A stretch of 7,394 bases of DNA from positions 1 through 7,394 of IMG/VR virus record IMGVR_UViG_2671180727_000001. One strand, written 5' to 3'. The DNA comes from a virus (lineage: Duplodnaviria; Heunggongvirae; Uroviricota; Caudoviricetes). Shown here piece after piece: positions 1 to 7,394 of the stretch (its first letter is position 1; every line of letters starts with the position of its first letter). Below the pieces are notes generated by a model. It saw only the letters and a program-made list of their open reading frames with translations. It searched no databases and was not told the origin of the DNA. The position numbers and the translations under genes are program-made.

Positions 1-1007
1 GTTGTGGCTGTTGAAGCAGACGATGCGGCACTTTCTGCCGATTTTCCGGCGGCGGTGGCACTGGCTGAGGCCTGCCCGGCACTTGTTGACGCGGCACTGG
101 CAGACGATGCAGCCGCTGTTTTTGAGCCTGCCGCAGCTGAGGCGCTCTGTCCCGCTGCCGTCTCAGAAGACCTGGCGTTCGTCTCGGACGTTTTTGCCGC
201 CTTCGCGGAATTTCCTGCCGCCGTTGCCGAGGAAGCTGCGCTACTGGCGCTCAAGGATGCGTTCGTTTCTGATGATTTCGCTGCCTCTTTTGAGGCCGCC
301 GCATCCCGGGCTGAGGTGGCAGCTTCTGACGCTTTCGTGGTCGCGGTGGATGCAGAAGTGGCTGCTGATTGTTGTGACGCTGCGGCATTCGTTTCAGATT
401 TTTTCGCAGCAGTTGCACTCGCACTTGCGGCACTTTGTGAGGATGCCGCAGCGGATGCACTTTGAGACGCTTGAGAGGCTTTTTCTCCAGCGGTATTGGC
501 GCTTTCTGCTGCTGCGGCAGCACTGGCCGCCGCCTCACGAGCTTTGTCGCCAGCAGCATCAATCGCGTCAGTGTTATTTTTATACCACTCAACGTTTTCG
601 TTGTGCTCGTTGACGATCTGCATTAGCGGCTTAACGGTTACTTCTGTACCGTCTTCACGCTCGATTGTCACCTCATCCAGAGCAGTCAACCAACTGCGCA
701 TAGACTTGGAATCAGCCGACATACGCGACATTAGTGCTGTAAAGCGCGCGCTAAACTGTGTTAAGTCGCCTTCATAGGTCGTAATGATTCGGCACGGAAC
801 TTCAGACTGAGTTTCGCCGGTATAAGGTTCTGAGAGAACAATGTTCGTATCACTGGTTACGCGCTTGATCTCATACAGTTTATTGTCGGGGCCAATGACG
901 ATCATCCCCGGCAACACACCATTAGCTGTTACGTTCCAGGCTGTCCCTGCCCCAACCAGAGTATTGCTACCCTGTGTAAATGTGATAGTACCTTCCCTGT
1001 ACCACAT
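1..1007 (-). CDS. stf: Side tail fibre protein, lambda Stf-like; N-terminal 335 codons only, 3' end lies beyond the window start
   Basis: Manual minus-strand translation from ATG at 1007..1005 is open for 335 codons to position 1 (MWYREGTITFTQGSNTLVGAGTAWNVTANGVLPGMIVIGPDNKLYEIKRVTSDTNIVLSEPYTGETQSEVPCRIITTYEGDLTQF...). From about position 540 downward it becomes an Ala/Ser/Thr-rich repeat region (...KKSETNAAASQQSAATSASTATTKASEAATSARDAAASKEAAKSSETNAS...) that is close to the repeat region of lambda Stf as I recall it. AAGGAG lies 10 nt upstream of the ATG. Not in the ORF track because there is no in-window stop. Confidence 0.8.
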   Translation of the reverse strand, partial: MWYREGTITFTQGSNTLVGAGTAWNVTANGVLPGMIVIGPDNKLYEIKRVTSDTNIVLSEPYTGETQSEVPCRIITTYEGDLTQFSARFTALMSRMSADSKSMRSWLTALDEVTIEREDGTEVTVKPLMQIVNEHNENVEWYKNNTDAIDAAGDKAREAAASAAAAAESANTAGEKASQASQSASAAASSQSAASASATAAKKSETNAAASQQSAATSASTATTKASEAATSARDAAASKEAAKSSETNASLSASSAASSATAAGNSAKAAKTSETNARSSETAAGQSASAAAGSKTAAASSASAASTSAGQASASATAAGKSAESAASSASTAT

Positions 1008-1028
1008 GTTGAATATGCTCCTTGATTT

Positions 1029-1065
1029 GGCGGGTTATCCTTGCCCGCCATTAAGTAATTACTTA
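1029..1065. promoter_or_regulatory. Intergenic inverted repeats between J stop and stf start: GGCGGG-N9-CCCGCC (1029-1049) and a perfect 14-bp palindrome TAAGTAATTACTTA (1052-1065)
   Basis: Read directly from the sequence. The GC hairpin sits immediately upstream of the stf Shine-Dalgarno on the minus strand. No U-tract follows it on either strand, so it is not a canonical intrinsic terminator. Function unknown. Confidence 0.3.
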
Positions 1066-1100
1066 CCTATTTTTACCGATATAAAATTTTTTTTCCACCA

Positions 1101-4100
1101 TCACAGACGGCCAATTCTTACTCGTAAGACGTTGTTATCGTCATAAACGTCAATCCGCTGACCATTTATAACCAATCGCCCATTGCCGCCGCTATTACCG
1201 TTGATCTCAAGCGTTCCATTTTTGCCGAACCGCCATCCAGATCTACCGCTAACAAAATTGGTAGATTGCAGATCGCCTACTTTTGCATTGGTGATTGTGC
1301 CATCCTTGATATACGCTCCATTCATATAGGCGATACTGTTTTCGATAACAAATGGCGTTGTGATCTTCCCGTTAACAGAGTTGACCAAACCAAACCTGTC
1401 CGCCTGAACCAAAAACTGAGATAGCCCAGTGGTGTCAATACCAAGCGCAATACCGGCAACATACTTCTGCCCTCCGCTCGTTGAAGTTTCCATTTTCAAC
1501 GTCCACGCGGTTGACACTTTTTTGTTGGTATCAGCAATAGCTGTTGCCTGCTGTTGAATTGTCGCGGTATTTCCATCCACCTCTGCTTTCAGAGTATCGA
1601 TTCGCCCACTCAGAGCATTATCTGCCTGCGTTCTCGCTGTCGTTTCAGTTGTTACCGCCGCGGAAATGTTGGCTGCCGTTTGAGACTCTAAGTTTGTGAT
1701 TTGAGTCGCCAATGCAGCATCTTGCTCTGTACGCGTTTTCGTTTCGGTTGCTACAGCCGCTTTAATATCCTCTTTGTATTGAGAGGTCAGCTTGGTGATC
1801 TGAGACGACAACGCCGAGTCAGCATCAGTTCGAGCCTGCGTTTCAACTGCAACGGCCGCACTAATATCTTTCGCTGTCTGTGCTTTTAAACTTGAAACCT
1901 CTTTTGTTAAAGCGGTATCACCATCTGCACGAGCCGTTGTTTCTCTGGCAAGAGACGCCTCGAGATCATTAGCTTTTGCTGTAAGAGACGTAATCTGGGT
2001 AGACAATGCACTATCGGCATCAGTCCTTGCTTTTGTCTCTACAGCAACCGCTGCGGCAATATCAGTTCCGGTTTGTGCTCGCAGGCTGTTAATTTCTCGT
2101 GAGAGCGCCTGGTCAGCACTTGCTCTGGCCTCCTGCTCCTGAGTGATGGCCGCGGATATATCACCGTCAACCTTTGACTGAAGCTGGTTTATTTGTTTGG
2201 CTAACGCAGAGTCCCCGCTTGCTCGGGCCTCCTGCTCACTACGTATTGCAGCAGAAATATCATCATCAACCTTTGCCTGAAGTTGGGTGATCTGGCTTGC
2301 CAGAGCCGAATCTTCCGTTGCTCGGGCTTCTTGCTCTTCCTTAATAGCTGCGACGATATCGTTGCTTACTTTCGACTCAAGCTGAGTGATCTGTGTCGTC
2401 AGAGCTTCATCGGCAGATGTACGAGCCTCCTGCTCTGTACTAATCGCCGCGCTGATATCTCCTTCAAACTTAGATTGCAGCTGAGTGACACGCTTTGCCA
2501 ACGCTTCATCGCCATCGGCACGAGCGGTGGACTCTTCCAGAATACTGGCCTTAATGTCTTCGCCAATTTCTACGCGAATTTCCTCAACCTTCGTGGCCAT
2601 TGCAGACATATCATCAGCAAAGGTTTTCTGTGTTGTTGCGATCTTCGCGTTATTGACCATCTGCTTGTGCTGGTCTTCATCTTGACGAAGAGCCAGGTCA
2701 ATATTTGTTTTGGCTAACGCCTCAATGTTCGTAGTCAGTTCTGCACTGGCACGATCGACCTCTGCAACCGTCTTTTTCATTTCTTCAACGGCAGCGGAGC
2801 TTTCCTCTACCGTTGACTGCAACACTTCCAGTTGTTTAGCGTTTGCAGCATCGCCTTCAACACGAGCCTCGCTTTCCTTAGCAATAAGAGCCGCCGCTTC
2901 ATCTCTTGCAGCCTTTATTGCCTCGACTGTATTAGCGAGAGCTTTATCGTGTTCAGATACGGTGTTTTCGATTTCAACAATTGCAGCATCAGTAGCATCA
3001 ATTTTTTCAAACGCTTCATTGACCTTGTCGATCGTTGCCGAAACCTCACCTTTAAGCTCGGTTTGTGCGTTCTCCAAAGCATCGCTACGCTCGTTGAATT
3101 TTATTTCAAAATCCGCGAGGTTATCGCTGAACTGCTTATCTAATTCAGCTATATCTTCCTTAACGTCGTTTACCGCCCCCTCCAAAGATTCGACGCTCTG
3201 GTTGATATGCTCATTTAACTCGTCAACTGCTTCTTGAGAGGCTTTGCTGTTGATGTCCTCAAGCAGAGCCTGACCAAGCTCGGAAGATGTAATTTTGCCA
3301 GTCAGGAACGACAGTACATCGCGAGTTGTCGCCTCTGTACCCAAGTTTGAGTTCGGAGGACTTAACATACCTCGCTTGTTCGATGCTCGAACCCAGTAAT
3401 ACCACGTTTCGCTATCCCCAAGACCAGCATGTGTAAAGGTGGTGCTTGCAGACTCTGCGATCAGTTTCGCCGTATCCAGATTGTTGGTCTGGGATGCGTA
3501 AACATTAATGTGATCAAGGTCTACCGAATCTGGATTAACCCAATTCAGTATCACATTACGATAGTCTCCAACGGCCGTTAATGACGTTGGGGCATCCGGC
3601 GGTGTCATTGTGCCCAACACCTGATAAACGGTACTGATAATCTCTGTTTTTTTACCGTTGAATGAAACCGCATACAGCTGGAAGTCGTAGCGTCCATTCT
3701 CCGCGACATTAACGATTTCGTATTGCTCTTCGGTTACACGCGCCGATTGCCAGTTCGATACATTGTTTTCATCAGAACGTCGCCAACTGATCCAATACTC
3801 TGGAGATTTCCCTTCCCATGTTGCAGTCAGTTTTACTGACAGGTTGCCCGGGCTTGAGAGATAAGTCCCTTCAGTGATTTGCAGATTAGATGGCTTGGAG
3901 TAAGTTGGGTCCAATACCGTCGTATTCTGCGGGATCAGCGTTGCACCATTGTCGATTGCCTCATATTTAGACGGATTGTTCTCAACAGCGGTGATGTCAA
4001 AGCTACCCGGCGTTTCCCCCTGCGCGATGTTAACGATGCGAACGCGCATAGGTTCGAGGTCTGGTTCTGTAATAGTCCAGACGCCGTTCAAAACAGGCGT

Positions 4101-5828
4101 TTCAGCCGAAGACAGGGCTTTTGAAAACGTAACTTTTGTTATATTTTCGCCAGTTTCAAGAACATCGCGTTCAACGATTTTGCCTTCCTGATTCAGTATT
4201 CGAATAAAGCAGCCGCCTTTGGCTAACGACACAGGCGCATCGAGTGTGACGCTGTTTTTGGTAAACGCCACAATTCGACCTGAGTTACGTTTGCCTGCGC
4301 GATATTTGTTCTGAATCAGAACGGTTTCACCAGGCATCAGAAATGACGCGTCTAAGCCGGCAGTAAATGTAATTACATCCGACTCCATTCTGGCGGTATA
4401 TAAAAGCCACAAACCAACTCGGTGAGCCTGCCCTCGGCTTGTACAGCCAAATGCTACGACTTCTGTTTTACGCTCACCATAACGGCGCATTGCGTCCTGA
4501 TCTTCGACGTACTCGATGTTTTGCTTATAACCGTCCTCCTTGTTGTTGTAGGTTACGAGCGCAACGGATGGGCGATCTTTACGCGCAGAACCTTTATAGG
4601 TAAACAATCCATCTTTGACGTTAGAGTTGGTAAACATCATTACCGGATCTGATGGGCTATCCTGCATGATGTTAACCATCCCACCAGCCCAAAACACCAT
4701 GCCGCGGAATGCTCCGGCAATATCCTGAATTAGCCGGTATGCGTCCTGTCGACTGGTGATCTGCGTATTGATTGCAAAGCGTTTCTCTTTGCCACCAAAG
4801 CCATCATCGACCTCTTCGTCACAATATCGACCAATCTGGTACAACTGGCCAAGGTCAATCATAGATTCCGACACATACTGACCAAGGCCATATCGAGCAT
4901 TGGTCAGCAAATCAAAGAGAATCCACGCGGGGTTCGAAGAAGACAACAGCTTAAAAGTGCCATCCCATACCCCAGCGTAAGTGTTACTGGACTCGTTATA
5001 GTTTGAAGGTACTCGAATTTTTAGGCCACGCACCAGATAAGAGCGAGATGGCATGGTGCTGCCGAATTGCTCAGAGTTTACCTTCAATCCAACCAAAACA
5101 GAGTTTGGATAGTTCATCGGTGTATCGACAATTTCCCCGATTGAATCCACCCATGTATCGTTATAGAGATACTGGCTACTGTTATCATCGGTAATACGGA
5201 CCACACGAACCTTGTATGCTCGTCCAGGCTTAGGCAGCTTCAGCTCATAGCTACGGTAATAAACGCCGGTCTTCTTTGCTGTTAGCTTAATGCCAACGCT
5301 TTTTTCACCTTCAGCGACCACATCTACAAATGTTGAGTCGCCATTTGCTATCTGGAACTTGTACTCAACAGTCGTACCGTTCGTGTCACCAGTTTTTTTA
5401 TCTATGCTTCGCAAAGAAGGAAACTTCATGATGACACGAACCCGATCAGCTTCATCGTTATCGATTGAAACCGTTACATAATGTGTTTTTTTTAACTGGA
5501 TATTGACGGATTTAGGCGTTTCAACGAAATCAAAGCCAGACATTGGAGTCTGGTCTTGTGAACCGTCGCGAAAATCCCATGTGATTCCGCTGAAGTTGGA
5601 GGAACCGTCTTCATTTACAATCGGCAGATCGTCGATAAAAATAGATCTTGCGCCATTTACCAAGCCGCCAATTACCCCTTCCCCAAGAAGATCGAGGATA
5701 GCGGCCATTGCACGAGAATTTACGGTATCGTCGGCTTCAACCGGTGTACGGCTAGAGCTTTTGCTGCTTTTTTTACCACCCGCACCTGCAATAAACAGCG
5801 GTAACTTTTTCTTCTTGAACTGTTCCAT
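1101..5828 (-). CDS. J: Host specificity / central tail fibre protein, lambda gpJ-like, with a greatly expanded coiled-coil insertion (about 1575 aa)
   Basis: ORF-track ORF 1101..5834 (TTG); I prefer the in-frame ATG at 5828, two codons in, with AAGGA upstream. The N-terminal ~880 aa match lambda J as recalled (e.g. NYPNSVLVGLKVNSEQFGSTMPSRSYLVRGLKIRVPSNYNESSNTYAGVWDGTFK against lambda CYPNTALVGVQVDSEQFGSQQVSRNYHLRGRILQVPSNYNPQTRQYSGIWDGTFK; also FGCTSRGQAHRVGLWLL and the GKITSSELG motif). The C-terminal GGQKYVAGIALGID...LSQFLVQADRFGLVNS matches lambda KHYVAGIGLSMED...LSQFLVAANRIAFID. Stop TGA at 1103..1101. Confidence 0.9.
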   Translation of the reverse strand: MEQFKKKKLPLFIAGAGGKKSSKSSSRTPVEADDTVNSRAMAAILDLLGEGVIGGLVNGARSIFIDDLPIVNEDGSSNFSGITWDFRDGSQDQTPMSGFDFVETPKSVNIQLKKTHYVTVSIDNDEADRVRVIMKFPSLRSIDKKTGDTNGTTVEYKFQIANGDSTFVDVVAEGEKSVGIKLTAKKTGVYYRSYELKLPKPGRAYKVRVVRITDDNSSQYLYNDTWVDSIGEIVDTPMNYPNSVLVGLKVNSEQFGSTMPSRSYLVRGLKIRVPSNYNESSNTYAGVWDGTFKLLSSSNPAWILFDLLTNARYGLGQYVSESMIDLGQLYQIGRYCDEEVDDGFGGKEKRFAINTQITSRQDAYRLIQDIAGAFRGMVFWAGGMVNIMQDSPSDPVMMFTNSNVKDGLFTYKGSARKDRPSVALVTYNNKEDGYKQNIEYVEDQDAMRRYGERKTEVVAFGCTSRGQAHRVGLWLLYTARMESDVITFTAGLDASFLMPGETVLIQNKYRAGKRNSGRIVAFTKNSVTLDAPVSLAKGGCFIRILNQEGKIVERDVLETGENITKVTFSKALSSAETPVLNGVWTITEPDLEPMRVRIVNIAQGETPGSFDITAVENNPSKYEAIDNGATLIPQNTTVLDPTYSKPSNLQITEGTYLSSPGNLSVKLTATWEGKSPEYWISWRRSDENNVSNWQSARVTEEQYEIVNVAENGRYDFQLYAVSFNGKKTEIISTVYQVLGTMTPPDAPTSLTAVGDYRNVILNWVNPDSVDLDHINVYASQTNNLDTAKLIAESASTTFTHAGLGDSETWYYWVRASNKRGMLSPPNSNLGTEATTRDVLSFLTGKITSSELGQALLEDINSKASQEAVDELNEHINQSVESLEGAVNDVKEDIAELDKQFSDNLADFEIKFNERSDALENAQTELKGEVSATIDKVNEAFEKIDATDAAIVEIENTVSEHDKALANTVEAIKAARDEAAALIAKESEARVEGDAANAKQLEVLQSTVEESSAAVEEMKKTVAEVDRASAELTTNIEALAKTNIDLALRQDEDQHKQMVNNAKIATTQKTFADDMSAMATKVEEIRVEIGEDIKASILEESTARADGDEALAKRVTQLQSKFEGDISAAISTEQEARTSADEALTTQITQLESKVSNDIVAAIKEEQEARATEDSALASQITQLQAKVDDDISAAIRSEQEARASGDSALAKQINQLQSKVDGDISAAITQEQEARASADQALSREINSLRAQTGTDIAAAVAVETKARTDADSALSTQITSLTAKANDLEASLARETTARADGDTALTKEVSSLKAQTAKDISAAVAVETQARTDADSALSSQITKLTSQYKEDIKAAVATETKTRTEQDAALATQITNLESQTAANISAAVTTETTARTQADNALSGRIDTLKAEVDGNTATIQQQATAIADTNKKVSTAWTLKMETSTSGGQKYVAGIALGIDTTGLSQFLVQADRFGLVNSVNGKITTPFVIENSIAYMNGAYIKDGTITNAKVGDLQSTNFVSGRSGWRFGKNGTLEINGNSGGNGRLVINGQRIDVYDDNNVLRVRIGRL
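1572..2558 (-). repeat. About ten imperfect tandem 99-bp (33-codon) repeats inside J, encoding DISAAIxxEQEARxxADxALxxQITQLxSKVxx-type units
   Basis: The translation shows consecutive 33-residue units (DISAAISTEQEARTSADEALTTQITQLESKVSN / DIVAAIKEEQEARATEDSALASQITQLQAKVDD / DISAAIRSEQEARASGDSALAKQINQLQSKVDG / ...). At DNA level a recurring motif appears at ~100-bp spacing (gctctggcctcctgctc near 2122, gctcgggcctcctgctc near 2220, gctcgggcttcttgctc near 2320, acgagcctcctgctc near 2421). Confidence 0.7.
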
Positions 5829-5846
5829 GTTCAAAAAAATCCTTGT

Positions 5847-6440
5847 TTACATTAGCTGGTCAATCGTGATTGAAGAACTCACAACCTGTGAGCCAACCAG
5901 AATTTCCTCGCCATAGATAAGTTGTACTGGGTTGCCCTGGTTTTCTGTATTTTGAGGGCCGTCGAAATAATAAGAGTTCGAGTTATCTGCCTGTCTCACA
6001 CTTTCGTTAGTGGCTTGCGGCGATATGATTTGTGATATGCCGCCCATCATCAGTGACAAACCGAGAGGTGCTAAAGCAGGCATCACTACCGCCGATACAA
6101 CCAACAAAGCGGCCCCTACTACCGTCTGAAACCACCCAAAAGCAGATCCACCGCTTCCTCGCGGAACAGGTGTAATGCGGATTTTGGCAATGTTGTCAGA
6201 CTGCCCCATCATCTGATATTCACTTTCGTCAACAGACCACTTGTGGCCCTGTTTATTGGTGATCTGGATGTGGTAACGGTCATAGGTTTTGATATTGCGC
6301 TTCATCCATGCTTTAAACCCAGGCTTGTTGGCCTCAATTAAATCCAGAGCCTGTTTTGTATTGCGCACCTTTAGATGCCAGTGGCGGCCAAAATGTTTGG
6401 CCATAGGGCCGCCAAGCTGCACATGAACTAACTCAGACAC
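5847..6440 (-). CDS. I: Tail assembly protein, lambda gpI-like (197 aa from GTG)
   Basis: ORF-track ORF; start is GTG at 6440..6438 with GGGAG upstream; a later ATG at 6404 is an alternative. The N-terminus VQLGGPMAKHFGRHWHLKVRNTKQALDLIEANKPGFKAWM resembles the recalled lambda gpI N-terminus (VRLYGDLADRFG...ANYPGFQSAM). The C-terminal half has a Gly-rich segment followed by a hydrophobic stretch (PRGSGGSAFGWFQTVVGAALLVVSAVVMPALAPLGLSLMMGG). Position between K and J matches lambda gene order. Confidence 0.8.
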   Translation of the reverse strand: MSELVHVQLGGPMAKHFGRHWHLKVRNTKQALDLIEANKPGFKAWMKRNIKTYDRYHIQITNKQGHKWSVDESEYQMMGQSDNIAKIRITPVPRGSGGSAFGWFQTVVGAALLVVSAVVMPALAPLGLSLMMGGISQIISPQATNESVRQADNSNSYYFDGPQNTENQGNPVQLIYGEEILVGSQVVSSSITIDQLM

Positions 6441-7225
6441 GTCTCATCTCCCTTGAGCAAGTCTCTGTGACGCAAGTGATGCGTCGTATGTTTCTGATAC
6501 ATTCCGCCGTAATAAGCACGACAACTAAGACGGTCGATCTGGTGATGAAGAATCATTCCATCGCCGATATAAACCGCGCAGTGATCTGGCATTTTCCCGT
6601 ATTGAATAAAGAAGACGTCCCCACGTTGAGGCTCTGTTCCAGGTGCAAGCCGTACCAATCCCTCGTTTCGGTAGTTCTGGTCGAGAATGTCGTTATCGCC
6701 GGTGTACCACGATGGAATATGCAGGTGTGCGTTCGGGTTAAGCTCGACGTTAAACTCACGCTTCAAATAGTCCCGACACAACATCCAGCAATCGAATACG
6801 CCAAATACATACGGTCTACCCAGGTATGGCATTTCGAAACCATCAGGTGTGATCACATTCATCTCGCTAAAATGGAAAGGGGCATCTCCCTCAACATTCT
6901 TGCGAATAGCCAGAATCATCCACGGAACTTCCGTCGCTTCACAGCCTGCACGATCGGCATCAGATGCTTCTGCTGATTCATCAGTATGTGAATGCCAGAT
7001 TGCGATTACGTCACCTGCATCCTCTGCCGCCATAATGTCGTCAACGTGCATTACAAAAGTGTTCTGCGGGTTCTCCGAAACATTTCGCGCTTCCATAAAG
7101 CGATATTTGTCGCCATTAGTTCTCACCAGAAAGCCACACGCTTCATTAGGGTAGCGATTTATGGCGCAGAGATAGATTTGCTGCATAACATCAGAGCCAA
7201 GCTCAGGGATTGCTTTATTACCCAT
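6428..7225 (-). CDS. K: Tail assembly protein, lambda gpK-like, with MPN/JAMM and NlpC/P60 domains (266 aa from ATG)
   Basis: ORF-track ORF 6428..7252 starts at TTG; I prefer the ATG at 7225..7223, which has GGAG 9 nt upstream. The JAMM motif H-x-H-x7-S-x2-D is present as HSHTDESAEASDAD, preceded by PNEACGFLV. NlpC/P60-like Cys and His contexts are present (GVFDCWMLCRDYL; HCAVYIGDGMILHH). The stop overlaps the I start by 13 nt. Confidence 0.85.
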   Translation of the reverse strand: MGNKAIPELGSDVMQQIYLCAINRYPNEACGFLVRTNGDKYRFMEARNVSENPQNTFVMHVDDIMAAEDAGDVIAIWHSHTDESAEASDADRAGCEATEVPWMILAIRKNVEGDAPFHFSEMNVITPDGFEMPYLGRPYVFGVFDCWMLCRDYLKREFNVELNPNAHLHIPSWYTGDNDILDQNYRNEGLVRLAPGTEPQRGDVFFIQYGKMPDHCAVYIGDGMILHHQIDRLSCRAYYGGMYQKHTTHHLRHRDLLKGDETCLS

Positions 7226-7294
7226 ATCGCGTAGCTCCAATAAACCCGCCAAAATGGATCACTCCGTTGGCAAAATAATTCCGACGCGCATTAC
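7218..7294 (-). pseudogene. L: 3'-terminal remnant (24 codons plus stop) of a lambda gpL-like tail tip assembly gene, truncated at the IS boundary
   Basis: Minus-strand frame reads ...NARRNYFANGVIHFGGFIGATRYG* and resembles the lambda gpL C-terminus as recalled (...KFRNNVGNFGGFLSINKLSQ*). Its TAA stop overlaps the K start (ATGGGTAA), as in lambda L/K coupling. The frame is cut at 7294/7295 by the IS end and no L N-terminus is present in the window. Confidence 0.55.
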
Positions 7295-7394
7295 TGAACC
7301 GCCCCGGGAATCCTGGAGACTAAACTTCCTGAGAAAGAGGTAAACAGGATGACTAAAAATACTCGTTTTTCCCCTGAAGTCCGTCAACGGGCAG
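7295..7394 (+). mobile_element. Left end (IRL plus leader) of an IS3-family insertion sequence, IS629/IS1203-like; continues beyond the window
   Basis: The sequence from 7295, TGAACCGCCCCGGGAATCCTGGAGACTAAACTTCCTGAGAAAGAGGTAAACAGGATG..., begins with the TG dinucleotide typical of IS3-family ends and matches my recollection of the IS629/IS1203 left terminus. It is followed by the orfA start. Only one end is visible, so the target-site duplication cannot be assessed. Confidence 0.8.
7359..7394 (+). CDS. IS3-family transposase OrfA, N-terminal 12 codons (partial)
   Basis: ATG at 7359 is preceded by GAGAAAGAGG (SD) with 8-nt spacing. The translation MTKNTRFSPEVRQRA matches the N-terminus of IS629/IS1203-type OrfA (HTH protein) as recalled. 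Not in the ORF track because there is no stop in the window. Confidence 0.8.
   Translation, partial: MLVFPLKSVNGQ

What the first reader, a model, noticed from the sequence alone, without database searches (positions are those of the whole stretch)
1101..1520. J ends about 100 residues after the conserved YVAGI motif and lacks a lambda-type C-terminal receptor-binding domain
Lambda J continues for roughly 250 residues after the YVAGIGL...SQFLVAANR region, and its extreme C-terminus is the established LamB-binding determinant. Here the protein stops at ...NGRLVINGQRIDVYDDNNVLRVRIGRL, about 110 residues after the equivalent motif, and the last 30 residues do not resemble the lambda C-terminus as I recall it. 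Receptor recognition therefore probably differs: either a short novel C-terminal tip or reliance on the downstream Stf-like side fibre.
Basis: partly seen in the sequence, partly recalled or inferred. Interest (0 to 1): 0.5.

Follow-up and report, generated by a model that had tools for sequence, protein, structure and literature searches.

The report
Tail-tip protein J lacking receptor domain
The central tail-fibre protein J of this SSU5-like E. coli phage-plasmid is intact and ends in a widely conserved blunt "cap" instead of lambda's receptor-binding domain, a known design in which a separately encoded small protein is thought to bind the receptor, so the finding is real but ordinary.

Summary
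J (1101-5834, minus strand, 1577 aa) stops 115 residues after YVAGI. Lambda J runs 252 residues further and carries the Ig-like receptor-binding domain PF12421, which is absent here.

The stop is genuine. SSU5, PhiR41_1, CMS-2020a and hundreds of plasmids end the same way.

The tip is not novel. The last about 30 residues (G.GR..I.N....VYD.N.V.RV..G.L) close the PF09327 beta-prism. 139 of 176 homologues end within 8 residues of this motif, including T1 gp33, N15 gp21 and Nonagvirus J.

Twenty homologues diverge at residue ~1545 and add a lambda-like linker plus domain of 150-195 aa. These include close SSU5-like relatives in Klebsiella and Yersinia.

Cap-type J co-occurs with two small genes, phrog_557 and phrog_425, which the literature predicts to be tip receptor-binding proteins. 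In IMG/VR loci 44 of 55 cap-type J had the pair and 0 of 10 extended J did.

In this window the side-fibre gene follows J directly. The nearest relatives (Cyrano and 99.7%-identical plasmids) carry the pair 40-60 kb away.

Best reading: a non-covalent tip receptor-binding protein plus a lateral fibre. Docking itself is inferred, not shown.

This is a new member of a known kind, of modest interest.

The parts
1101..5834 (-). Gene J, the central tail fibre / tail-tip hub protein. It is 1577 aa from TTG 5834; the start is probably the ATG at 5828.
3252..5777 (-). J residues 20-861: hub domains and FNIII domains, collinear with lambda J residues 2-835 (32% identity).
   Evidence: Pfam FNIII-A_GpJ, Phage-tail_3 and fn3
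1572..3251 (-). J residues 862-1421: a proline-free, about 560-aa predicted coiled coil (extended alpha-helical shaft) that lambda J lacks.
1560..2549 (-). Ten tandem 33-residue repeats within the coiled coil (residues 1096-1425).
   Evidence: 48% identity at lag 33; 99-nt DNA period
1158..1562 (-). PF09327 Phage_Tail_Tip domain (residues 1425-1559), equivalent to the central straight fibre beta-prism of lambda gpJ 845-972.
1449..1463 (-). YVAGI motif (residues 1458-1462).
1191..1208 (-). Junction (residues ~1543-1548) where extended, RBD-bearing homologues diverge from cap-type homologues.
1104..1196 (-). Conserved terminal 'cap' motif, residues 1547-1577 (G.GR..I.N....VYD.N.V.RV..G.L).
1101..1103 (-). 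TGA stop of J, conserved in relatives.
1008..1100 (-). 93-nt spacer between J and the fibre gene. It holds no ORF for a tip receptor-binding protein and no consensus promoter or terminator.
1..1007 (-). 5' part of the tail-fibre gene (ATG at 1007; 1341 aa in Cyrano). The N-terminal ~200 aa are a non-lambda attachment domain; residues 202-323 are 81% identical to the lambda Stf shaft.
5847..6440 (-). Gene I (tail tip assembly).
6428..7252 (-). Gene K (JAB + NlpC/P60); the start is probably the ATG at 7225.
7218..7294 (-). Last 24 codons plus the stop of gene L, cut off from the rest of L by the IS element.
7295..7394 (+). Left end of an IS3-family element (IS629/IS1203-like).

Best explanation
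J here is a complete central tail-fibre protein of an SSU5-like phage-plasmid. From N- to C-terminus it has a lambda-like hub and FNIII domains, an unusually long (about 560 aa) coiled-coil shaft, and a beta-prism (PF09327) that ends in a conserved terminal cap instead of a covalently attached Ig-like receptor-binding domain.

The cap is one of two interchangeable endings of the J family. In cap-type phages the terminal receptor is most likely recognised by small, separately encoded proteins: a phrog_557 protein of about 90 aa and a phrog_425 'hand-like' protein of about 200 aa. These are thought to dock non-covalently on the cap, as pb5 does on pb4 in T5. The downstream long fibre provides primary, reversible adsorption (LPS core in SSU5).

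In this element the cassette is not next to J. In the nearest relatives it lies 40-60 kb away.

Shown here: intactness of J, its domain make-up, conservation of the cap, the two alternative endings, and the co-occurrence of cap-type J with the gene pair. Inferred: physical docking, the identity of the receptor, and signal transmission to the hub.
For: Domain make-up and absence of PF12421.

The stop is conserved.

Cap motif: 139 of 176 homologues end 0-8 aa after it, and G1550, G1552, R1553, D1565, R1571 and G1575 are each conserved in 86% or more.

Alternative ending: 20 of 176 homologues diverge at residues ~1543-1548 and add 150-195 aa. These include SSU5-like P0032/P0046, Klebsiella pJN2-26 (J of 4045 aa) and Yersinia pMT1.

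Fold: the AF2 model is all-beta (pLDDT 78). The only significant PDB matches are the SU10 needle beta-prism and the lambda gpJ central fibre. Sequence matches include T1 gp33, PyoF10, DEV gp56 and lambda gpJ 841-971.

Gene pair:
- N15 has gp21(cap)-phrog_557-phrog_425-Cor-fibre.
- JenP2 has the pair next to J.
- SSU5 has the pair plus Cor after the fibre genes.
- Cyrano has CYRAN_88/89 (phrog_557 E=6e-29, phrog_425 E=2e-70) remote from J.
- Plasmids 99.7% identical to the window also carry it.

Association: in IMG/VR loci with at least 2 kb downstream of the J stop, 44 of 55 cap-type J had the pair within 10 kb, against 0 of 10 extended J (Fisher p=2e-6, not corrected for relatedness). pJN2-26 lacks the pair at the syntenic site. 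By genus, Klebsiella has 513 J hits but 2 phrog_425 hits, Yersinia 61 and 0, Escherichia 204 and 183.

Literature: the BASEL preprint 10.1101/2021.03.08.434280; PMC12309495 (AF2-multimer places the hand-like protein on the J tip); 10.64898/2026.04.02.716166; PMC12892993 (DEV gp56 recruits gp55/gp54 and binds LptD); PMC13455828 (a pyocin J-like fibre without an RBD).
Against: No experiment or model here shows that phrog_557/425 proteins bind this J. Multimer modelling was not available.

SSU5 and the window have virtually identical J tips, yet their phrog_425 proteins share only 27% identity. Any docking interface must therefore be generic, or limited to the conserved N-terminal ~130 residues.

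In Cyrano-type genomes the pair sits among accessory or early-looking genes, and PHROGs labels these families 'moron/membrane protein'. A non-virion role such as exclusion is not excluded.

The only receptor reported for SSU5 is the LPS core, bound via the fibre adhesin gp22 (cited in PMC12312913).

No experimental structure resolves a cap-type J end. The T1, pyocin, DEV and SU10 models of this region are AlphaFold-based.
Confidence: 0.6

Rival explanations
1. The J tip carries no receptor-binding protein. Host recognition rests on the long side fibre alone, and the capped beta-prism acts as a needle or trigger that contacts or pierces the outer membrane non-specifically.
For: The fibre gene follows J directly, with no small ORF in the 93-nt spacer. 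The SSU5 receptor is reported as LPS core, bound via the fibre adhesin gp22 (PMC12312913, PMC4138488). The same cap-ended beta-prism ends the SU10 tail needle gp18, which is described as a membrane-penetrating needle with no attached receptor-binding protein.
Against: The nearest relatives keep an intact phrog_557/425 pair (99% conserved across many plasmids), and SSU5 also keeps Cor. Cap-type J and the pair co-occur, whereas extended J lacks the pair. BASEL reports that siphoviruses of Gram-negative hosts generally need a terminal outer-membrane protein receptor.
Confidence: 0.22
2. The conserved cap itself binds the terminal receptor directly.
For: It is the most distal part of the protein, and the 10.64898/2026.04.02.716166 preprint finds receptor-associated sequence features in GpJ tip domains.
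Against: The cap motif is nearly the same in phages of Escherichia, Klebsiella, Pseudomonas, Burkholderia, Vibrio and Ralstonia. That fits a structural or adaptor role, not a specificity determinant. SSU5 (Salmonella) and the E. coli elements have identical tips. AF2-multimer models of the cap with FhuA or BamA were poor (PMC12309495).
Confidence: 0.1
3. J is truncated by a premature stop or a sequencing error and once carried a lambda-type domain.
For: Some close relatives do continue past residue ~1545.
Against: Those relatives diverge about 30 residues before the stop rather than reading through it. The cap and the stop are conserved from SSU5 to distant phages. Translation beyond the TGA gives WWKKNF...* only.
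Confidence: 0.02

Closest known systems
Lambda gpJ (PDB 8IYK, 8XCK; PMC11101478)
   Same: The hub domains, FNIII domains, alpha-helical shaft and beta-prism central straight fibre are shared. Identity is 32% over residues 20-861 and 34% over the start of the prism.
   Different: [quoted passage not shown] It has about 560 extra coiled-coil residues and ends in the cap motif.
N15 gp21 with gp22/gp23/Cor; also T1 gp33 and the J proteins of Dhillonvirus, Nonagvirus and Drexlerviridae (BASEL)
   Same: J ends in the same cap (N15...GVLRVQIGKITGVF*; T1...RLRVQIGRL plus 4 residues). The phrog_557 and phrog_425 genes are present.
   Different: In those phages the cassette lies immediately downstream of J. 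Here the fibre gene does, and the cassette is 40-60 kb away in the nearest relatives. Their shafts are also much shorter.
F-type pyocin PyoF10 (PDB 25VF; PMC13455828)
   Same: A J-like protein with an elongated alpha-helical shaft and a beta-prism that lacks a receptor-binding domain, with separate receptor-binding proteins proposed.
   Different: Pyocin side fibres attach to the shaft through OB domains. Where the fibre attaches here is unknown, and the shaft here is longer and contains 33-residue repeats.
T5 pb4-pb5, and DEV gp56-gp55-gp54 (PMC12892993)
   Same: The working principle is the same: a trimeric central fibre carries a non-covalently bound receptor-binding protein at its tip. The DEV gp56 C-terminus matches J residues ~1516-1577.
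   Different: T5 pb4 shows no detectable sequence similarity. DEV is a podovirus and its fibre sits beside the tail plug.
SSU5-like J proteins of Klebsiella (pJN2-26) and Yersinia pestis pMT1
   Same: They belong to the same phage-plasmid lineage, with the same hub and the same prism up to residue ~1545.
   Different: They carry a covalent lambda-like linker plus a C-terminal domain and lack the phrog_557/425 pair.

Membership tests
Lambda-type J with covalent receptor-binding domain | N-terminal hub, Phage-tail_3 and FNIII-A domains | tested here: met
   Pfam hits PF24801, PF13550 and PF00041. BLASTP E=7e-116 to lambda J.
Lambda-type J with covalent receptor-binding domain | Central straight fibre (PF09327) | tested here: met
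   PF09327 at E=1.4e-41 covering the full profile. Foldseek matches 8xcj and 8xci.
Lambda-type J with covalent receptor-binding domain | C-terminal Ig-like receptor-binding domain (PF12421) after the prism | tested here: not met
   There is no PF12421 hit at E<=0.01, whereas lambda scores 4.5e-74. The protein ends 18 residues after the PF09327 match.
Cap-ended J with non-covalent tip receptor-binding protein (N15 / T1 / Dhillonvirus / Nonagvirus type) | PF09327 prism at the extreme C-terminus, ending in the conserved motif VYD.N.V.RV..G.L | tested here: met
Cap-ended J with non-covalent tip receptor-binding protein (N15 / T1 / Dhillonvirus / Nonagvirus type) | Receptor-binding protein genes (phrog_557 + phrog_425 or analogues) immediately downstream of J | tested here: not met
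   In the window the fibre gene follows J after a 93-nt spacer with no ORF.
Cap-ended J with non-covalent tip receptor-binding protein (N15 / T1 / Dhillonvirus / Nonagvirus type) | The same genome encodes a phrog_557/phrog_425 pair | tested here: inconclusive
   The pair cannot be seen in the 7.4-kb window. It is present in Cyrano (98.8% identical), CMS-2020a, PhiR41_1 and plasmids 99.7% identical to the window.
Cap-ended J with non-covalent tip receptor-binding protein (N15 / T1 / Dhillonvirus / Nonagvirus type) | Physical docking of the receptor-binding protein on the J tip, and binding to an outer-membrane protein | not testable with these tools
   Multimer modelling was not available, and the literature offers only predictions (PMC12309495, PMC12892993).
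Cap-ended J with non-covalent tip receptor-binding protein (N15 / T1 / Dhillonvirus / Nonagvirus type) | Cognate superinfection-exclusion lipoprotein (Cor-like) | tested here: inconclusive
   Cor is present in SSU5, N15 and the L034-type elements. It did not appear among the 30 listed hits for Cyrano, and the whole Cyrano genome was not scanned.
Lambda Stf side tail fibre (for the downstream gene) | N-terminal collar-forming domain (Stf residues 1-94) | tested here: not met
   BLASTP aligns only residues 202-323 to Stf 205-326. There is no Pfam hit in the first 335 aa.

The most novel reading that the evidence does not exclude
In the Cyrano-type SSU5-like phage-plasmids, to which this window belongs, the tip receptor-binding cassette has been moved out of the tail operon into a distant accessory region. 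Sister lineages keep it between J and the fibre, after the fibre, or replace it with a covalent domain. Host range would then be set by an unlinked, freely exchangeable two-gene cassette that plugs onto a universal J cap at the end of a coiled-coil fibre about 80 nm long. Its expression could also be regulated separately from the tail genes.
Probability: 0.15. Interest if true: 0.5.

Novelty: new member of a known kind. Interest (0 to 1): 0.3.

Why it matters
SSU5-like phage-plasmids are common in clinical Enterobacteriaceae and spread resistance genes, so knowing what sets their host range is useful.

The analysis shows that this lineage uses the same plug-in system as T1, N15 and Nonagvirus: a universal J cap plus exchangeable small tip proteins. 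Klebsiella and Yersinia relatives instead use a covalent domain. This gives a concrete candidate (CYRAN_89-type proteins) for the terminal receptor-binding protein.

It does not reveal a new mechanism.

Tried and rejected
- **Premature stop or sequencing error:** rejected, because the ending is conserved.
- **Similarity of the last 150 aa to lambda's receptor-binding domain:** none by Pfam, BLASTP or Foldseek.
- **The search for homologous proteins with the C-terminus:** it returned only short fragments, which were useful as an AF2 alignment but not for architecture statistics. The representatives search was used for that instead. Its top 150 are ranked by score to a cap-containing query, so the 139:20 ratio is biased towards cap-type proteins.
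- **AF2:** it could only be run as a monomer (pLDDT 78, pTM 0.46). The trimeric prism and any complex with receptor-binding proteins could not be modelled.
- **Promoter, terminator and hairpin scan of the J-fibre spacer:** nothing significant.
- **First-pass HMMs from four seeds:** they missed the divergent pair in the distant lineage. Iterated HMMs found it.
- **Original SSU5 receptor paper (PMC3911222):** not held.
- **Whether Cyrano has a cor gene:** left undecided.
- **Candidate receptor:** BamA or FhuA can only be guessed, from 61% identity of CYRAN_89 to the Stx-phage homologue and 83% to JenP2.

Full report
**What the window is.** The 7.4-kb window is 98.8% identical to Escherichia phage Cyrano, the SSU5-like phage-plasmid of E. 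coli LF82. It is 99.7% identical to many E. coli and E. albertii plasmids of 105-125 kb. All genes lie on the minus strand:
- the 3' end of L;
- K (JAB + NlpC/P60);
- I;
- J (1101-5834);
- after a 93-nt spacer, the start of a long tail-fibre gene (ATG at 1007; 1341 aa in Cyrano).

**Checking the observation.** J ends ...GRLVINGQRIDVYDDNNVLRVRIGRL followed by TGA at 1101-1103. YVAGI is residues 1458-1462, with 115 residues after it. Lambda has YVAGI at 876-880, with 252 residues after it. Pfam places PF09327 (Phage_Tail_Tip) at J 1425-1559, covering the whole profile, and finds no PF12421. Lambda J has PF09327 at 845-972 followed by PF12421, its LamB-binding Ig-like domain, at 1001-1132.

The comparison also shows a second difference from lambda. 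About 560 residues (862-1421) are inserted between the FNIII domains and the prism. This stretch has no proline, and its last 330 residues are ten 33-residue repeats, so it is predicted to be a very long coiled-coil shaft.

**Is the stop genuine?** Yes. SSU5 shares only 79% nucleotide identity yet ends ...RVRIGLL*. PhiR41_1 ends identically to the window. CMS-2020a is 100% identical over the last 160 aa, and 238 plasmid records match at 90% or more.

**Is the tip novel?** No. An exhaustive profile-free search with the last 160 aa found 1288 representatives. Among the 176 sequences retrieved:
- 139 end 0-8 residues after the same motif, G.GR..I.N....VYD.N.V.RV..G.L, in which six positions are conserved at 86% or more;
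- 20 diverge at J residues ~1543-1548 and continue for 150-195 residues. They carry a lambda-like linker (NNV.VRG...A..G.F.G...) and a terminal domain.

The extended group includes close SSU5-like relatives: P0032 (82% identical up to the junction), P0046 (2930 aa), Klebsiella pJN2-26 (J of 4045 aa) and Yersinia pMT1. A third variant has the cap plus 124 further residues (L048/L049). It matches the Salmonella plasmid hits in identity and extent, which I take, from memory and untested, to be pHCM2-like.

The ranking favours cap-bearing proteins, so the 139:20 ratio is not a frequency estimate. It does show that both endings are common.

**Structure.** The AF2 monomer model is all-beta (pLDDT 78). 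Its only significant PDB matches are the SU10 needle beta-prism, aligned over all 160 residues, and the lambda gpJ central fibre, aligned over about 125 residues that do not reach the cap. Sequence matches in the PDB are T1 gp33, pyocin PyoF10, a gp24 J-like protein, lambda gpJ 841-971, DEV gp56 and SU10 gp18. In the T1 and pyocin entries this region was not resolved, and in DEV and SU10 it is an AlphaFold model fitted to low-resolution density. The cap therefore has no experimental structure.

**What cap-type J proteins are thought to do.** BASEL proposed that J-like proteins either carry a C-terminal extension that binds the receptor or display dedicated, non-covalently attached receptor-binding proteins encoded next to J together with exclusion proteins. 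Later work extends this idea:
- AF2-multimer models put a 'hand-like' protein on the 'knife-like' J end in Dhillonvirus, Stx phage 24B and Littlefixvirus.
- DEV gp56 recruits gp55/gp54, which targets LptD.
- The pyocin J-like fibre has a long shaft and no receptor-binding domain.
- A 2026 screen ties the locus downstream of J to FhuA, BtuB, LptD and YncD.

**Evidence gathered here.**
- N15 has gp21 (cap) followed by phrog_557, phrog_425, Cor and then the fibre, with the adjacent genes gp21/gp22 and gp22/gp23 overlapping by one base.
- JenP2 has the pair beside J.
- SSU5 has phrog_557, phrog_425 and Cor after its fibre and gp38-like adhesin genes.
- Cyrano has CYRAN_88 (phrog_557) and CYRAN_89 (phrog_425; 83% identical to JenP2's, 61% to the Stx-phage protein). 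They lie 43-60 kb from J, between a phrog_5508 gene and a DUF4942 gene.
- Klebsiella pJN2-26, whose J carries the covalent domain, has both flanking genes but no pair anywhere in its genome.

In plasmids, phrog_425 homologues follow the cap-type genera. The counts are Escherichia 183, Enterobacter 40, Klebsiella 2 and Yersinia 0. The corresponding J hits are 204, 103, 513 and 61.

In 80 IMG/VR loci, counting only those with at least 2 kb downstream of the J stop, 44 of 55 cap-type J had the pair within 10 kb. That includes all 33 loci of a distant lineage. None of 10 extended J had it (Fisher p=2e-6, not corrected for relatedness). The 11 cap-type exceptions include the window-like loci, where the cassette is known from complete genomes to lie far away.

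Within SSU5-like elements the cassette occupies three positions: between J and the fibre with a Cor-like gene (L032-35, L080), after the fibre (SSU5 type), or remote (Cyrano type).

**Interpretation.** The best-supported mechanism is a two-step system. The long fibre gives primary adsorption; for SSU5 this is LPS core via gp22, as cited in PMC12312913. A small protein complex docked on the J cap then binds a terminal outer-membrane receptor and triggers opening of the hub, as in lambda and T5.

Docking is inferred, and several caveats apply:
- Identical J tips in SSU5 and the window pair with phrog_425 proteins only 27% identical. This requires a generic interface, and only the N-terminal ~130 residues are shared across phrog_425/3370.
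- In Cyrano the pair sits among accessory-looking genes.
- SU10 offers a precedent for a capped prism that works as a bare needle.

I therefore give 0.6 to the docking model, 0.22 to a fibre-only or needle model, 0.1 to direct binding by the cap, and 0.02 to truncation.

**Verdict.** The feature is an ordinary member of a known architecture, newly placed in the SSU5-like phage-plasmids. The displaced receptor cassette and the very long repeat-built shaft are its only unusual traits.

Noticed in passing
window 7295-7394 (and 7218-7294): The last 100 nt are the left end of an IS3-family element (IS629/IS1203-like, starting TGAACCGCCCCGGG). It is inserted in gene L, 24 codons before the stop. Homology to Cyrano and most plasmids stops at 7294. 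This copy of the phage-plasmid may therefore be tail-defective although J is intact.
   Followed up: partly
window 1560-2549 (J residues 1096-1425), within 1572-3251: There are ten tandem 33-residue (3 x 11) repeats inside a proline-free, ~560-aa predicted coiled coil that lambda J lacks. If fully helical, the shaft would be about 80 nm long. J length varies from 1385 aa (SSU5) to more than 4000 aa in relatives.
   Followed up: partly
window 1-1007: The downstream fibre is mosaic. Only residues 202-323 resemble the lambda Stf shaft (81% identity). Its N-terminal domain (MWYREGTITFTQGSNTL...) recurs at the start of fibres that follow the receptor-binding cassette in unrelated cap-type phages (L034, L064), which suggests a conserved attachment module.
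   Followed up: partly
L004:4675-5573 (Cyrano 81933-82831); L008:18543-19250 (pJN2-26): The phrog_557/phrog_425 pair in Cyrano is a clean insertion between a phrog_5508 gene and a DUF4942 gene. Klebsiella pJN2-26 has the same two flanking genes only 129 nt apart.
   Followed up: yes
L048, L049 (IMG/VR); plasmid NZ_CP029905.1: A third J ending: the cap motif is followed by about 124 further residues. It is seen in two IMG/VR loci (L048, L049) whose 68% identity and query range 1-157 match the Salmonella enterica plasmid hits. I take these to be pHCM2-like (from memory, untested). No phrog_425 pair is present within the 3-6 kb available downstream.
   Followed up: no
L010 (E. coli pSCU-306-2, NZ_CP053233.1): In this near-identical plasmid the match to the window spans 1.2 kb more than the query, and no J protein is listed. 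This suggests an IS insertion that disrupts J there.
   Followed up: no
window 5828-5834 and 7225-7252: The mechanical ORF starts (TTG 5834 for J, TTG 7252 for K) lie upstream of the ATG starts annotated in Cyrano. A 1-nt indel relative to Cyrano lies between 5828 and 6428.
   Followed up: no
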